DNA of 63,503 nucleotides, counting the filler, from Candidatus Woesearchaeota archaeon (GTDB lineage: Archaea; Nanobdellota; Nanobdellia; Woesearchaeales; J072), in assembly GCA_003695265.1 (NCBI GenBank). It is 4 parts of 4 records of this genome, joined end to end, with 100 filler letters (N's around TTAATTAATTAA, not from the genome) between each part and the next. Parts side by side here need not be neighbours in the genome. Positions count along the whole stretch, not along the records: positions 6,724 to 17,986 come from RFII01000076.1; 3 more parts are not named here. One strand, 5' to 3'. The stretch's first letter is position 1. Every line of letters begins with the position of its first letter. Shown here in pieces: positions 6,069 to 46,537 of the stretch. Position numbers and translations under genes: made by a program. The notes beneath the pieces are model-generated. The model made no database searches and was not told the origin of the DNA. It was given only the letters and a program-made list of their open reading frames with translations.

Positions 6069-6428
6069 ATGGTGCGCTACCCTAAGATTTCTGACACTCC
6101 GGACAAGTTTGACTTAAAAGGGAACAAGCTTTGCAGGAATTGCAGCAAGCAAATTGCAAAGGGGAGAAGGCATTACTGCTCTAAGAAATGCATGGAAGAT
6201 TTCAACAGGAATAACTCATGGTATTTTGTCAGGAAAGACGTTCTTAGAAGAGACAATTACAGGTGCAGCATCTGCAAGAAGAGGTTTAGGAAAGCAGATC
6301 TTGACATTGATCATATAATACCTGTGAGGATGGGTGGAAAGCTCTTTGAGAAAGCCAATCTTAGGACTTTATGCAAGGAATGCCACAAGGCAAAGAGCAG
6401 GCTTGACAAAGAGGCGCTAAACTATTAA
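6069..6428 (+). CDS. Stand-alone HNH endonuclease with N-terminal Zn-finger
   Basis: CRNC...YCSKKC, then RDNYRCSIC...DIDHIIP...NLRTLCKECH. Confidence 0.88.
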   Translation: MVRYPKISDTPDKFDLKGNKLCRNCSKQIAKGRRHYCSKKCMEDFNRNNSWYFVRKDVLRRDNYRCSICKKRFRKADLDIDHIIPVRMGGKLFEKANLRTLCKECHKAKSRLDKEALNY

Positions 6429-6452: not shown

Positions 6453-6623
6453 TGCGCCGGCCGGGACTTTCAACAGATTTTACCGTTGAGGTTCGTGAGA
6501 CTTCACGCAGTGAACGTCTCACTAAAACGCTTTTTACCAGATTTTGGCAAAAATCTGTTTCGAACCCGGATCGACGGCTTGGAAGGCCGTAATCATCTAT
6601 GGCAACCGGTTGCGAACGTTAGT
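6453..6623 (-). tRNA. tRNA-Gly(TCC), 5' end lost in the contig gap; T-loop intron 6467-6558 (92 nt, 59/60) and a D-loop intron running from 6597 into the gap
   Basis: Reverse complement reads ...ATGATT ACGGC CTTCCAA GCCGT CGAT CCGGG TTCGAA [intron] T CCCGG CCGGCGC A; BHB-like junctions GAA-AG^T and CCAT-AG^A. Confidence 0.88.
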
Positions 6624-6723: not shown

Positions 6724-7358
6724 GCATTGTCTTTATGGTTGTTCATATAATCAAGAATGTTATCAATTATAGGATAACACTCTCTTGCTTTTTTCTCATT
6801 AATTTTTTTTATTATTTCCCTTACTTGATTCTTAAAAACTTTTGAAGAGTTAAAAAAATCAAAAATTTTTATTCCTAAAAATGCGCCTTGAAGGTATAAG
6901 TCAGCATAATCCCCCTGAAGAAGGGTTCTCTCAAAGTCTAGAATGGCTGGCTGCTTTTCCTCAATGGTTTCCCAGTCAGCAGCAAGTTCAGCATAGTACC
7001 TGATTTTCTCGACATAATAATCGTGCAAAGGCCCGTCGCAAAAACCGTAGTTCACAATCCAGAATCTGAAACAGAACAGTTTGTGCAAGCGCTGGTCTGT
7101 TTTGACAATTAGCTCTTCTGTCTTTCTTTTCTCTTTTTCGTAATCTTTCTTTATTTTTTCGAAGCCAGCAAACAATTCTTTTTGTTGCTGGTAGATAAAT
7201 TTTTTGAATTCCTTGGGTTTGTTAAAATATTTTTTGGCTAGCTTCTCAAATAAAGGTATTATTTTTGGGAATTTTCTTGGGTAAAAATTGCAGAAACCTT
7301 CTAAATCGTTTGGAAGGCTTTTTGGAAATTGGAAAATGCTTTTATCAATCTGCTGCAT
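6724..7358 (-). CDS. Hypothetical protein, 3' truncated by gap; coupled to the upstream GHKL fusion
   Basis: ATG at 7358 (MQQIDK) overlaps the end of 7345..8622 and follows GAGGGTG; no motif recognised. Confidence 0.75.
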
Positions 7359-8622
7359 AAACCACACCCTCATTAGCGTCAACAATCACCTTTTGCCCGT
7401 CTTTTAATTTTTTTGTTGCTGTTTGTGTTCCGACGATACAAGGAATATTGAACTCCCTTGCAACTATCGCAGCATGGCATAACATTCCGCCCATATCTGT
7501 AACAATAGCGCCAGCCCTTCTTATCTGCAATAAAAAGTAGGGTCTTGTCATAGAAGTCACAAGTATGTCGCCTGGCTTAATTTTTTCCAATTCTTTCCTG
7601 GTTGTCTTGGCTCCGAGGAATATGTTTCTTACTATTCCTTCAACCCTTCCAGGATGGGCTGGAAAACCCTTGCAAAGAACTTTTTGCCTGACATCATAAT
7701 CTCTTAGGAATTTCATTAATTCTTTCGCTACTGTCTTATATTCTTTTGATTCTGTAATCCACTGCCTCTTATTATGCGAGACAGGCACATGGTCCATGTA
7801 CAGTTCTCCAATGATCTGTTTTGTTTTTGGGTCTTTGCCCAAACCGATTTTGTCATAGCTTGTGATTAGCCTTCCTTTCCTGAAAGTGTTAAACCCGTAA
7901 TACTCTTTAACTGAGCCAGCTAGTTTAAATCCGAACCAGCCTTTTAATATGTGGCCATCATCCAATTTAAGTGAGAATTCCTTTTTTCCGTCCGAAGTTA
8001 GTTTTGGAATAATTTCTTTGCATTTCTTGTTGTTGATGTTTATTTCCACTTCGTTTGTGCTTATGAAAGGGCCAAACCTTATTCCAAACTCGTCTGCAAG
8101 TTTGTCAATCTCTTTCTTATCAACTTTAACAATAATATTATTTATTTTTATATGAGTGTAGCTTTCCTTTGACCCTTTCCTTACTATTAATGGGTATTTG
8201 TCCCACCTACCTGATTTCATCCATTTTGACTCATCAAATTCCACGCAATACTCTTCATTTATACCAATAGGAGATGTTTTGATACTGAATTTTGTTCCCA
8301 AGCTTAAACAAGCAGTTTTGAGCCCCAGACCGAATTTTCCAAGTTTTTCACTCTTTTCTTTTGTGCTAAAACCGAGTTGAAGAACTTTTGATGCAATATC
8401 TTTCGGCATTCCGTGTCCGTTGTCAGAAATCTTTATTTCTTTCTGGTTTATTGTAATATCAATCTTCAGCTTTTTATTTGGCAGGGCTGCGTCAATAGAA
8501 TTATCTATCAGCTCAGCAATAGCCTCGCTAAGGCTGTAACCAGACTGCCCTAATTTTAACATAATGCTCCTGTGAGGGGTAATGTCAACGTATTCTACTA
8601 TTTTTTTTGCTGGTTTCTCCAT
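7345..8622 (-). CDS. MORC-like GHKL ATPase fused to a PEP-utilising phosphohistidine swivel domain
   Basis: ELIDNSIDA, ISDNGHGM and LGKFGLGLKTA Bergerat-fold motifs; C-terminal GDILVTSMT...VTDMGGMLCHAAIVAREFNIPCIVG. Confidence 0.88.
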   Translation of the reverse strand: MEKPAKKIVEYVDITPHRSIMLKLGQSGYSLSEAIAELIDNSIDAALPNKKLKIDITINQKEIKISDNGHGMPKDIASKVLQLGFSTKEKSEKLGKFGLGLKTACLSLGTKFSIKTSPIGINEEYCVEFDESKWMKSGRWDKYPLIVRKGSKESYTHIKINNIIVKVDKKEIDKLADEFGIRFGPFISTNEVEININNKKCKEIIPKLTSDGKKEFSLKLDDGHILKGWFGFKLAGSVKEYYGFNTFRKGRLITSYDKIGLGKDPKTKQIIGELYMDHVPVSHNKRQWITESKEYKTVAKELMKFLRDYDVRQKVLCKGFPAHPGRVEGIVRNIFLGAKTTRKELEKIKPGDILVTSMTRPYFLLQIRRAGAIVTDMGGMLCHAAIVAREFNIPCIVGTQTATKKLKDGQKVIVDANEGVVYAAD

Positions 8623-9632: not shown

Positions 9633-9719
9633 AATAATATTTTATAGGGGTTAAGTGTTATTTCTTATATTATTAACAAAAAATAGTTAAGTTTTAAATA
9701 TTATCAGCTATTGCTAATA

Positions 9720-9785
9720 GTTCGTGAGGCTTCAAGAAGTGAATGTTTAACTTAATTGCATTTAACCAAGTTTGGTTAAAGTTTG
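9720..9785 (+). repeat. Intergenic copy A of the tRNA T-loop-intron core (double hairpin)
   Basis: 49/67 positions match 6491-6557 by manual alignment; ends in the TTTAACCAAGTTTGGTTAAA inverted repeat. Confidence 0.75.
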
Positions 9786-9869
9786 CAGTGCTGGTCTAAT
9801 TGGCAATTGTCTTGTCCGTTGACACCAAGGCTATGTAGGGTGTAAGCAAGCTTAACCCTATGGAAAAAG

Positions 9870-9936
9870 GTTCGTAGCATTTCACGAAGTGAATATGCCA
9901 CTTAAGCACATTTGATCAAACTTTGGTTAAAGTTTG
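9870..9936 (+). repeat. Intergenic copy B of the tRNA T-loop-intron core, abutting tRNA-His
   Basis: GTTCGT...TTCAC-GAA-GTGAA...TTTGGTTAAAGTTTG; direct repeat of copy A at 150 bp spacing. Confidence 0.72.
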
Positions 9937-9937
9937 T

Positions 9938-10114
9938 GGCGGTAGTAGTTTAATGGTAGAATACAGGACTGTGGAAGCAAAGCTGTGGAAATCCTGTGGC
10001 GGGGGTTCGATAACAGTGTTCGGAGCGCGGTTTTCGGAACGCGGCAAAAGCACTCATCACTGCCGAGTTCTGGCTATTGAGCACTGACCGCTGTAGAAAG
10101 TCCCCCCTACCGCC
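9938..10114 (+). tRNA. tRNA-His(GTG) with encoded G-1; introns 9975-9990 (16 nt, 37/38) and 10012-10100 (89 nt, 59/60)
   Basis: G GCGGTAG TA GTTT AATGGTA GAAT A CAGGA CTGTGG[ ]A TCCTG TGGC GGGGG TTCGAT[ ]T CCCCC CTACCGC C; relaxed BHB junctions. Confidence 0.9.
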
Positions 10115-10143
10115 CTTTAAATTGCTTTTCGAGTTTAAAAAAG

Positions 10144-10746
10144 ATGAAGGAATTCCTCTTAAGGGAGTGGAAGGAAAAATACGGTTTCTCAGAAAAACTG
10201 CTAAAGGCCTTTGAGAATGTTCCTAGAGAATTATTTGTGAGAGAAGATGACTTTGGAAGGGCTTACGGTGATTATCCCTTGCCGATTGGCTATGGCCAGA
10301 CGATTTCCCAGCCGACAACAGTTATGATTATGATAAATGCTCTGGAGTTAAAGCCGACAGACAAAGTGTTGGAGATTGGTGCTGGAAGTGGTTATTGCGC
10401 GGCATTAATGTCAAAGTTGGCAAGAGAGGTTGTTTCTGTTGAGATTATTACTGAGCTCGTTGAACTTGCCAGGAGTAATTTGAGAAAAGCAGGCATTAAG
10501 AATGTCATTGTTGTTGAGGGTGACGGCAGCTTGGGTTATGGGAAGAAGGCACCTTATGACAAGGTAATGGTTACTGCTGCTTGCCCGAAAATACCAAAGC
10601 CGTTGATTGAGCAGTTAAAGCCAGATGGAATCCTTGTTGCGCCTGTCGGCGCTTACAGTCAAAGAATGATTAGGATAAAGAACGGAAAAAAAGAGGATCT
10701 TGGCAGTTTCGTGTTTGTTCCTTTAAGAGGGAAGCACGGGTTTTAG
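10144..10746 (+). CDS. pcm: Protein-L-isoaspartate O-methyltransferase
   Basis: VPRELFV, LPIGYGQTISQP, LEIGAGSGY and FVPL motifs. Confidence 0.95.
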   Translation: MKEFLLREWKEKYGFSEKLLKAFENVPRELFVREDDFGRAYGDYPLPIGYGQTISQPTTVMIMINALELKPTDKVLEIGAGSGYCAALMSKLAREVVSVEIITELVELARSNLRKAGIKNVIVVEGDGSLGYGKKAPYDKVMVTAACPKIPKPLIEQLKPDGILVAPVGAYSQRMIRIKNGKKEDLGSFVFVPLRGKHGF

Positions 10747-14400: not shown

Positions 14401-14477
14401 TTTTACAATGAGACTTGCAGTCTCCTTGAACCTCTCGCATCAATGGTGGGTTCAAAGGGGAAGAACCACTTGTAAAA
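14401..14477. repeat. MITE/REP-like palindromic element, copy 1
   Basis: TTTACAA...TTGTAAA termini; aligns with the reverse complement of 45630-45707. Confidence 0.75.
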
Positions 14478-45629: not shown

Positions 45630-45707
45630 TTTACAATGGGGGCTATGCCCCCTTGAACCCCCTCTTCGATGCGAGGGGTTCAAGTGGACTGCAAGTCCTA
45701 TTGTAAA
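45630..45707. repeat. MITE/REP-like palindromic element, best-preserved copy
   Basis: Terminal TTTACAAT/ATTGTAAA enclosing three hairpins. Confidence 0.78.
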
Positions 45708-46320: not shown

Positions 46321-46537
46321 GGGCCCATAGTCTAGTGGCTCAACTGATTGCATCAGGTAAAAATCGCAATCAGTTCCACAGATGACGTCGCCTTCACAAA
46401 AACTTTTGAGAAAGGCGGAGGTCGCCGGTTCGAAACAGCTTTTTGCCAAAACCCAGGAGAAAGCGTTTAAGTGAGACGCTCACTGCGCGAAGTCCCACGA
46501 ACTTTGTAAAAAGCTGTTGAAAGTCCGGCTGGGCCCA
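46321..46537 (+). tRNA. tRNA-Val(CAC) with three introns: 46341-46381 (41 nt, 20a/21), 46399-46412 (14 nt, 37/38), 46435-46523 (89 nt, 59/60)
   Basis: Spliced: GGGCCCA TA GTCTAGTGGCTATGAC G TCGCC TTCACAA GGCGG AGGTC GCCGG TTCGAAT CCGGC TGGGCCC A; central helices GTGG/CCAC, TTCA/TGAG, TTCG/TGAA. Confidence 0.92.

What the first reader, a model, noticed from the sequence alone, without database searches (positions are those of the whole stretch)
9720..9936. The tRNA-intron core also exists as a free intergenic repeat: candidate mobile element that hides inside tRNA introns
Seen: the roughly 67-nt interior of the Gly/Val T-loop introns (+ strand 6491-6557) recurs twice in non-coding DNA, at 9720-9785 (49/67 matches) and 9870-9936. 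These copies lack the BHB-forming end CTTTCAACAG. All four copies keep two hairpin-type motifs: TTC(A/G)C-GNA-GTGA(A/G) with a GCA/GAA triloop (one mismatch in copy A), and a TTT..CC....TTTGG..AAA stem. Known: GNA triloops form very stable DNA mini-hairpins, and hairpins are recognition sites for HUH (IS200/IS605, REP-associated) transposases. The triloop reads GNA on the strand antisense to the tRNAs, which favours a DNA-level role. Inference: a non-autonomous element that is harmless in tRNA genes because EndA splices it out, linking REP/MITE mobility to tRNA intron birth.
Basis: partly seen in the sequence, partly recalled or inferred. Interest (0 to 1): 0.85.

Follow-up and report, generated by a model that had tools for sequence, protein, structure and literature searches.

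The report
Mobile hairpin element in tRNA genes
The two repeats are copies of a small, apparently undescribed mobile DNA hairpin of tiny (DPANN) archaea that has piled up in front of a hidden histidine tRNA gene, duplicates the DNA where it lands, and elsewhere forms spliceable tRNA introns, so it may show how archaeal tRNA introns arise.

Summary
The repeat is real, but the copies are not free intergenic DNA. 9720-9785 and 9870-9936 lie directly upstream of an unannotated two-intron tRNA-His (9938-10114). Between them sit a decayed duplicate of the tRNA's first 18 bases and a third, inverted copy (9804-9866). All 21 covariance-model hits in this genome are at stable-RNA genes: 12 in tRNA introns, 8 in tRNA leaders, 1 in RNase P RNA. 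The two-hairpin module covaries and occurs in 49 of 149 other genomes of the order. There, 34 of 74 copies are flanked by a direct duplication of the target (control 4 of 364), at tRNA ends and protein-gene ends; duplications run about 11-70 bases. One end is precise, the other fuzzy. The loop is C-GNA-G on one strand only, which fits single-stranded DNA. Best reading: a non-autonomous copy-and-paste element that survives where a duplication restores the gene or splicing removes it. No mobilising enzyme was found (Y1, RT, TnpB, Cas1, GIY-YIG absent here), so HUH chemistry and de novo intron birth are inferred. This scan noted the same kind of element before in other DPANN genomes; ten literature searches found no description.

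The parts
9720..9785 (-). Copy B of the two-hairpin element, decayed; its precise (hairpin-1) end abuts the first base of the duplicated tRNA 5' fragment
   Evidence: (51 bits)
9785..9803 (+). Decayed direct duplicate of tRNA-His nt 1-18 (acceptor 5' strand to the D-loop GG); read as the target duplication
   Evidence: 13/18 matches, 0/5000 random 19-mers; intact 20/20 analogue at tRNA-His of another family, L004/L064
9804..9866 (+). Copy X, third family member in the opposite orientation, starting exactly after the D-loop GG of the duplicate; with copy C forms an inverted doublet (9804-9936)
   Evidence: 41 bits; in training set; homologues upstream of tRNA-Val, -Gln and -Gly
9870..9936 (-). 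Copy C of the element, intact fold; precise end one base before the tRNA-His G-1
   Evidence: (70 bits)
9938..10114 (+). Unannotated tRNA-His(GUG) gene with two introns; the only His candidate found by a motif scan of the assembly
9975..9990 (+). 16-nt canonical (37/38) intron of tRNA-His
10012..10100 (+). 89-nt T-loop (59/60) intron of tRNA-His; interior belongs to a different hairpin family; central helix pairs 3 of 4
9693..9700 (+). TATA-like box about 20-27 nt upstream of copy B; would make B-duplicate-X-C a roughly 215-nt pre-tRNA leader (inferred, by eye)
   Evidence: sequence; no transcript data
6467..6558 (-). 92-nt T-loop BHB intron of tRNA-Gly(UCC) holding the element (core 6491-6557); gene 3' part 6453-6623, 5' part and a D-loop intron on contig C75
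46435..46523 (+). 89-nt T-loop BHB intron of tRNA-Val(CAC) (gene 46321-46536) holding the element (core 46436-46502)

Best explanation
A non-autonomous, copy-and-paste DNA element of DPANN archaea, about 55-110 nt, built from a terminal hairpin, a roughly 15-nt spacer and a second, bulged hairpin. Shown: it is multi-copy, structure-conserved and widespread in the order; one end (foot of hairpin 1) is precise and the other ends 0-30 nt past hairpin 2; many copies are flanked by an 11-70 bp direct repeat of the sequence just 5' of the precise end. Inferred: the precise end is joined to a target 3'-OH in single-stranded DNA (structured tRNA genes are favoured), the element is copied through hairpin 2, and the loose far end re-anneals upstream in the target, which re-copies a variable stretch. 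The enzyme is most likely an HUH-type nuclease acting in trans (about even odds within this model; not identified). Insertions survive where the duplicate restores the gene end (tRNA leaders and trailers, protein-gene starts and ends), where the RNA tolerates a longer helix (RNase P), or where the insert's ends pair to give a BHB so EndA splices it out; such introns then also spread between tRNA genes by whole-intron copying. At 9720-9936 the tRNA-His gene was hit more than once: insertion after the D-loop GG with duplication of the 5' end, plus copies in the other orientation at the tRNA's first base.
For: Duplications: 51/144 copies of one subtype vs 13/430 re-paired controls (four of the listed rows are tandem repeats involving the element); 34/74 model hits vs 4/364. 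Targets of 72 strong cases by rough regex: tRNA 5' sense 11, tRNA 3' antisense 16, CDS start 14, CDS end 10, other 21. Insert length 46-163, duplication 14-73 in 69 cases; far end -4 to 36 nt from the model end in 22 of 27. Covariation 12/19 and 18/18 pairs, 0/500 shuffles reach the covariation score. C-GNA-G 27 of 56 loops, one strand only; this is the stable DNA mini-hairpin motif (abstracts of PMC13037366, PMC3201870). The same four-part layout occurs at another tRNA in another family (L298). BHB is the lowest-energy fold in 5 of 9 element-bearing T-loop introns and within 0.2-4.7 kcal/mol in 4. In 29 T-loop introns of other genomes the element starts at intron base 1-3 and pairs with that intron's own tail (6.1 vs 5.2 of 7, 0/2000 swaps). 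Replitron-1, an HUH transposon, shows the same precise end, fuzzy end and variable duplication (PMC10288648 section 9).
Against: No mobiliser: Y1, RT, TnpB, Cas1, GIY-YIG not found in this 94.6% complete assembly; no Y1 or HNH gene flanked by the element in 59 loci; Y1 co-occurrence weak and RT none; no long insertion with a distant duplicate in 125 copies tested; no viral match to three patterns. Intron-type copies carry no duplication (0/17 T-loop, 0/11 anticodon), so one mechanism must give two outcomes. No RG or other strict target (20/69). No true empty site: no genome closer than order level and no variant in the one run that holds the locus. G-T wobbles favour opposite strands for the two hairpins. 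Sampled genomes are kin and the shuffle controls ignore relatedness.
Confidence: 0.55

Rival explanations
1. Retro-copying: the element moves as RNA (excised intron or leader) and is written into DNA by a reverse transcriptase primed at a target nick or by template jumping; the precise end is an RNA end, the fuzzy end is truncation or variable priming. Introns would then be the source of the leader copies.
For: Precise-plus-truncated ends and variable duplications fit target-primed reverse transcription (own knowledge). Several copies join exactly at tRNA base 1 or at the tRNA 3' end. Junction bases 1-6 of the upstream repeat differ from the intact copy far more than bases 7-16 (155/414 vs 56/686; the finder allowed an offset, which inflates this). 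RTs occur in 72/301 genomes of the order.
Against: No RT in this assembly; RT in 10/52 motif-positive vs 62/248 motif-negative genomes. The conserved GNA triloop is a DNA motif.
Confidence: 0.17
2. No dedicated enzyme: replication forks stall at the hairpins and switch template, copying the module into other structured loci and re-copying part of the target.
For: No mobiliser found. The junction is more often a short inverted copy of the element start than the intact target is (13 higher, 4 lower of 42). Modules are mosaic.
Against: The same precise end, spacer length and conserved bases recur across many families, which suggests protein recognition; template switching needs homology that is not evident at the precise end.
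Confidence: 0.15
3. Not a mobile element in its own right: ordinary BHB introns that are copied between tRNA genes (Thermoproteales-type), with the leader copies being partial duplications of intron-containing tRNA genes (5' exon plus start of a D-loop intron).
For: All 21 hits in this genome are at stable-RNA genes. Leader inserts start at the same D-loop position as real D-loop introns. Introns of different tRNAs are 97-99% identical. Such transposition is described (PMC4090602 passages).
Against: Same element with the same duplication at protein-gene starts and ends and antisense at tRNA 3' ends, where no BHB exists; both orientations inside T-loop introns (C76); unspliceable copy in RNase P RNA.
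Confidence: 0.08
4. Scars of integrase-type elements that use tRNA ends as attachment sites.
For: Duplicated tRNA 5' or 3' ends are the classic signature (PMC3293823 passages); one tyrosine recombinase in the assembly.
Against: Inserts are 46-163 nt with no cargo, breakpoints vary, many targets are protein genes; no element within the recombinase locus.
Confidence: 0.05

Closest known systems
REP / REPIN / BIME repeats with TnpA-REP (RAYT) (PMC3333891, PMC2817692, PMC3733652, PMC6006769: passages read)
   Same: Small non-coding hairpins in many copies, singlets and inverted doublets, mosaic, no cargo gene, single-strand fold conserved.
   Different: Archaeal; no GTAG/CGTC tag in the alignments; no flanked Y1 gene; long target duplications; concentrated in and beside tRNA, rRNA and RNase P genes.
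Replitron-1 / Replitron-N1 of Chlamydomonas (HUH Rep transposon; PMC10288648 section 9 part 1 read)
   Same: Copy-and-paste signature: one precise end, one fuzzy end, variable-length target duplication, a hairpin near the fuzzy end.
   Different: Ten times shorter; no strict RG target; no terminal direct repeat noticed; no Replitron or CRESS Rep found in 150 genomes (controls silent); the paper calls that signature non-canonical even for Replitrons.
IS200/IS605 ends and derived miniature elements
   Same: Imperfect subterminal hairpins; one IS200-like end in a relative (L219) resembles hairpin 2 by eye; Y1 genes in 103/301 genomes of the order.
   Different: IS200/IS605 make no larger target duplication; none of the Y1 loci examined carries this element as its end.
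Transposed BHB tRNA introns of Thermoproteales (Fujishima et al. 2010, seen only as summarised in PMC4090602 and PMC4033280)
   Same: [quoted passage not shown]
   Different: Here the intron interior also exists outside introns with target duplications, at protein genes, in 16S rRNA and in RNase P RNA.
IS1549 / IS1634-type DDE elements with long variable direct repeats (recalled, not tested; also named in scan note e1-6948996)
   Same: Long, variable target duplications.
   Different: Those have terminal inverted repeats, two precise ends and a DDE transposase; most copies here are one-ended with a fuzzy far end.

Membership tests
REP/REPIN/BIME | Short palindrome with a GTAG or CGTC tag at one end | tested here: not met
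   Alignments A1, A2: ends are CAA/CAG and CACGA; no such tag, read by eye
REP/REPIN/BIME | Inverted doublets separated by a spacer | tested here: met
   Window 9804-9936; L298, L307; most copies are singlets
REP/REPIN/BIME | A Y1 transposase gene flanked by the repeats | tested here: not met
   None in this assembly; 1 model hit in 36 Y1 loci, the intron of a neighbouring tRNA. Only 36 loci of more than 200 matches were fetched
IS200/IS605-derived miniature element | Imperfect subterminal hairpin read on one strand | tested here: met
   Bulged hairpin 2 with covariation and one-strand GNA loop
IS200/IS605-derived miniature element | No target duplication | tested here: not met
   11-70 bp duplications against the statement in PMC2817692
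IS200/IS605-derived miniature element | Guide sequence at the hairpin foot pairing with a fixed cleavage tetranucleotide | not tested
   Looked at by eye only, from recalled rules; no call
Classical TIR MITE | Terminal inverted repeats at two precise ends and a short fixed-length target duplication | tested here: not met
   Far end variable; duplication 14-73 bp; paired ends only in doublets and introns
Replitron | Precise end, fuzzy end, variable duplication (Replitron-1) | tested here: met
   against PMC10288648
Replitron | Insertion 3' of RG | tested here: not met
   AG or GG in 20/69 upstream copies, 10/37 in-register targets
Replitron | Replitron-type Rep HUH transposase | tested here: inconclusive
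   PF21859 and PF02407 0/150 genomes, but no control genome rang
Archaeal BHB intron (intronic copies) | 4-bp central helix between two 3-nt bulges; exons rejoin to a tRNA | tested here: met
   20 of 21 T-loop introns pair 4/4; folds; His and Gly reconstructed
Archaeal BHB intron (intronic copies) | Removal by EndA in the cell | not testable with these tools
   EndA gene present; no RNA run listed
Integrase attachment-site scar | Fixed att core and an integrase-bearing insert between the repeats | tested here: not met
   Inserts 46-163 nt, variable breakpoints; no distant duplicate in 125 copies
Intrastrand triplex repeat, class II (PMC4666352 passages) | Pyrimidine, purine and mirror-image third tract in series | tested here: inconclusive
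   Mirror identity above column shuffles at 5 of 7 positions in 73 copies, but neighbouring registers also score and subfamilies confound it

The most novel reading that the evidence does not exclude
An undescribed single-strand transposition system of DPANN archaea, with an enzyme unlike known transposases, that is the actual source of non-canonical BHB introns: each new insertion either re-copies the target (long direct repeat) or folds back and copies its own 5' junction, building a tailor-made BHB in one step in tRNA and rRNA.
Probability: 0.3. Interest if true: 0.9.

Novelty: new variant of a known kind. Interest (0 to 1): 0.72.

Why it matters
How archaeal tRNA genes gain introns at non-canonical positions is stated to be unknown (PMC4090602). 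Here one small element is seen both as the body of BHB introns (D-loop, anticodon, T-loop, 16S rRNA) and as ordinary insertions with a readable footprint, which makes intron gain testable with defined substrates. Long variable target duplications from a 60-nt hairpin element do not fit the prokaryotic families checked and point to an unidentified enzyme or repair route. Practically, it hides tRNAs from standard tools (ARAGORN finds 11 in this assembly) and tRNA introns sit at several contig ends, which bears on reports of missing tRNAs in Woesearchaeales (bioRxiv 10.64898/2026.05.13.725050 passages).

Tried and rejected
Rfam: no family for the element in the window or 10 element loci. Viral contigs: three patterns, 0 hits. 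Plasmids: only a 27-nt chance match, E 0.7. Mobiliser search in the assembly: Y1, lineage-built Y1 profile on six frames, RT (26), TnpB (27), Cas1, GIY-YIG (86): none; one tyrosine recombinase (28) without a copy beside it. DDE transposases, IS91-type Y2 and plasmid Rep families were not searched. Clustering 421 ORFs from 108 flanking loci gave no recurring neighbour. The HNH gene beside tRNA-Gly (6069-6428) was rejected: homologues in 28/300 genomes, 4 of them motif-positive (hand count), no element in 22 of its loci, tRNA in 2. A Y1 gene 270 bp from the motif in G136 proved to be a separate IS200-like element next to a tRNA intron. Replitron and CRESS Rep profiles 0/150 with silent controls. 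A loose structural descriptor was too noisy (54 hits vs 24-26 in shuffles). The first tRNA scan had a bug (redone in 12). The sigma-70 promoter scan does not apply to archaea. Sequencing runs: no RNA holder listed; the one DNA holder, perhaps the source sample, shows the locus without differences or joints. Split or trans-spliced tRNA was considered for 9785-9803 and dropped because the downstream gene is complete; no search for a partner half was run. Supplements of the papers were not opened.

Full report
SETTING. The window is four contigs (C26, C27, C28, C30) of a 1.06-Mb, 103-contig assembly, 94.6% complete. No genome closer than order level is held. Records that share the element are mostly titled Woesearchaeota or other DPANN groups, so the placement in Woesearchaeales is inferred.

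OBSERVATION. The two stretches match the Gly T-loop intron core (6491-6557) at 50/67 and 46/67 positions and the Val core (46436-46502) at 45/68 and 40/67; none of 2000 dinucleotide shuffles reaches any of these scores. They lack the BHB end. 9870-9936 folds into both hairpins on either strand; 9720-9785 is decayed. The repeat is therefore real.

WHAT SURROUNDS THE COPIES. They are not free. 9938-10114 is a tRNA-His(GUG) gene that ARAGORN and Rfam miss because it has a 16-nt anticodon intron and an 89-nt T-loop intron; after removing both in a script ARAGORN calls it. 9870-9936 ends one base before it. 9785-9803 is a decayed copy of its first 18 bases, ending at the D-loop GG (13/18; 0 of 5000 random 19-mers). 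9804-9866 is a third family member in the opposite orientation, starting right after that GG. The layout is: element, tRNA 5' duplicate, element plus inverted element, tRNA. The same four-part layout occurs at another tRNA in another family (L298), and tRNA-His of family f28 has an intact 20/20 duplicate. Contigs of the one run that holds the locus agree with the assembly from 9691 to 10500, but that run may be the source sample.

THE FAMILY IN THIS GENOME. A covariance model (R1, 28 sequences, 16 of them from this genome) gives 21 hits at E below 1e-5 and 4 weak ones. By their contexts the 21 are: 11 in T-loop introns (10 genes; one is split over two contigs), 1 in a D-loop intron, 1 in RNase P RNA (confirmed), 8 in tRNA 5' leaders, none elsewhere. 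Leader copies at Thr (twice), Val, Gln and His follow a duplicate of the tRNA 5' end; the Gly leader shows none. One T-loop intron (C76) holds the core in the opposite orientation. Four intron sequences from three different tRNA genes are 97-99% identical to the Gly intron or to each other, so whole introns are also copied between genes.

ANATOMY. Read from its precise end, the module is hairpin 1 (CAA or CAG to TTG or CTG), a 13-16 nt spacer, and a bulged hairpin 2 (GTG to CAC) followed by GA. Pairs covary: 12 of 19 pairs change on both sides in 19 copies from this genome and 18 of 18 in 74 model hits from other genomes (that alignment is fitted to the model); 0 of 500 shuffles reach the covariation score, a control that ignores relatedness. 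Of 56 scorable triloops, 27 read C-GNA-G (GAA, GCA, GTA, GGA) on the strand that is + in the window, and none on the other. G-T wobbles lean to that strand in hairpin 2 (10 vs 4) but to the other in hairpin 1 (18 vs 7). A mirror symmetry between hairpin 1 and the spacer, a lead from scan note e1-7008500, is present but inconclusive.

SPREAD. A 20-letter hairpin-1 motif occurs in 52 of 300 other genomes of the order, up to 16 copies, reversed control 0 (three of the 52 are flagged unpublished: G131, G207, G244). An exact 25-mer gives 79 stretches in the species collection, 71 in metagenomes and none in viral contigs. A profile of this genome's copies hits 17 places among those loci, several with nearly the same hairpin 2, which ties the two subtypes into one family. 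R1 hits 49 of 149 other genomes (includes unpublished G131). No locus-level claim rests on unpublished genomes.

INSERTION FOOTPRINT. Of 144 distinct motif copies with enough flank, 51 have a direct repeat (score 12 or more) of the sequence just 5' of the precise end, against 13 of 430 re-paired controls (four listed rows are tandem repeats involving the element). Of 74 model hits in 69 fetched loci, 34 do, against 4 of 364 (these loci were the better-scoring part of the hits). In 69 strong cases the repeat is 14-73 bp and the insert 46-163 nt; weaker cases go down to 11 bp. A rough classification of 72 cases gives 27 tRNA ends, 24 protein-gene starts or ends and 21 other. The intact gene copy usually lies beyond the far end, as expected if only such events survive. 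The far end is fuzzy, there is no strict target dinucleotide, and the six bases next to the junction are often altered. Copies that begin directly in a T-loop (0/17) or anticodon loop (0/11) have no duplication.

INTRONS. In this genome 20 of 21 T-loop introns have a perfect 4-bp central helix, and the BHB fold is lowest or within 4.7 kcal/mol for all 9 element-bearing ones tested. In 29 T-loop introns from other genomes the element starts at intron base 1-3 and its first bases pair with that intron's own tail better than with others' (6.1 vs 5.2 of 7; 0 of 2000 swaps), and the central helix follows the host (TTCG with CGAA in 13 of 14, TTCA never). The element also starts D-loop and anticodon introns and insertions in two 16S rRNA genes. 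This fits repeated intron birth, but selection on older introns or replacement of an intron interior by a two-ended copy would look similar, and unrelated interiors share the same T-loop ends. I put de novo birth at about even odds.

ENZYME. Not found. The assembly lacks Y1, RT, TnpB, Cas1 and GIY-YIG matches, though it is incomplete and breaks at repeats. Y1 genes occur in 24 of 52 motif-positive and 79 of 248 motif-negative genomes (p 0.055, kin not independent), RT in 10 of 52 and 62 of 248 (from lists copied out). No Y1, HNH or recombinase locus of 59 examined is bounded by the element, no neighbour protein recurs, and no long insertion with a distant duplicate was found in 125 copies.

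MECHANISM. Shown: a conserved two-hairpin module, one precise and one fuzzy end, long variable direct repeats, residence in places where it does no harm. Inferred: joining of the precise end to a target 3'-OH in single-stranded DNA, copying past hairpin 2, re-annealing upstream. I rate the mobile-element reading about 0.9 and this DNA strand-transfer model, with an HUH-type enzyme in trans as the likeliest catalyst, 0.55. Rivals: RT-based retro-copying 0.17, enzyme-free template switching 0.15, pure intron copying with partial gene duplication 0.08, integrase scars 0.05. For this locus the order of events is open: B and C may be independent insertions at the tRNA's first base, or two halves of one 85-bp duplication around X; they share hairpin 1 but differ in hairpin 2.

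COMPARISON. It works like a REPIN or BIME in build and like Replitron-1 in footprint (PMC10288648, passages and section 9 part 1), but fails membership of REP (no tag, no flanked Y1), IS200/IS605 miniatures (duplications; PMC2817692 passage), classical MITEs and Replitrons (no RG). PMC6006769 (passages) found only IS200-type Y1 proteins in archaea. PMC3333891 (passages) gives the TnpA-REP models. PMC3293823, PMC4033280 and PMC4090602 (passages) cover integration at tRNA genes and intron transposition, the last calling its mechanism unknown; Fujishima 2010 itself was not read. PMC12558985, PMC3733652, PMC4666352, PMC5829648 and bioRxiv 10.64898/2026.05.13.725050 were read as passages and those passages do not describe this element. 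Ten searches found no description; the library lacks most subscription papers, PMC11602168 (a prokaryote-wide MITE catalogue) was seen only as a listing, and supplements were not opened. Rfam has no match. This scan has noted the same kind of element in other DPANN genomes; I saw those notes, they are unchecked, and whether they concern the same sequence family was not tested (sequence look-ups were blank).

VERDICT. Observation partly confirmed; interpretation partly supported. A new variant of small non-autonomous hairpin element, widespread in Woesearchaeales, with an unusual footprint and a direct bearing on tRNA intron gain, but without an identified enzyme, an empty-site pair or RNA data. 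Interest 0.72.

Noticed in passing
G000 whole assembly: ARAGORN finds 11 tRNA genes but a motif scan finds 21 T-loop 59/60 introns, 20 with a perfect central helix; several genes have two or three introns and several contigs end inside introns.
   Followed up: partly
L001:456-1028 (G000:C17): Only one EndA gene was found, a single 190-aa unit. PMC5829648 (passages) says only heterotetramer and epsilon-2 types cut relaxed introns; a divergent second subunit was not searched for.
   Followed up: partly
window 10012-10100: The tRNA-His T-loop intron is built from another hairpin family shared with introns on C85 and C86; its central helix has a G-A mismatch.
   Followed up: no
window 14402-14460 and 45649-45707: A second, unrelated-looking repeat family (80% complementary pair), also seen beside tRNA genes at the ends of C76, C84 and C85.
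   Followed up: no
L016:1503-1572 (G000:C44): A copy lengthens a helix of the RNase P RNA just before its GAAAGUCC motif, the same letters that follow T-loop copies; no BHB.
   Followed up: partly
L267:1502-1634 and L283:1503-1642: The element starts 133- and 140-nt insertions at the same place in 16S rRNA genes of two families; the ends read as canonical BHB by eye.
   Followed up: partly
L076, L185, L193, L212, L215: The start of what looks like one protein gene is hit repeatedly in different assemblies, a possible hotspot whose target resembles the element start; the gene was not identified.
   Followed up: no
order-wide: Y1 transposases and reverse transcriptases co-occur (41/103 vs 31/197 genomes) and lie within about 3 kb on one contig in G119, G235, G148, G266, G038 and G269.
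   Followed up: no
window 6069-6428: Small zinc-finger HNH gene ending next to the tRNA-Gly 3' end; homologues in 28/300 genomes, most 57-81% identical.
   Followed up: yes
window 7345-8622 (-): MORC-like GHKL ATPase fused to a PEP-utiliser mobile domain.
   Followed up: no
L073, L077, L086, L087, L090, L118, L130-L132: In one Woesearchaeota assembly the inverted doublet sits inside a larger multi-copy structured repeat of more than 200 nt.
   Followed up: no
L115: A contig labelled as a bacterial (Aminicenantes) bin carries an archaeal-type tRNA with the element, probably misbinned; many hit records titled Methanosarcinales include loci identical to ones from this order (for example L069 = L058).
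   Followed up: no
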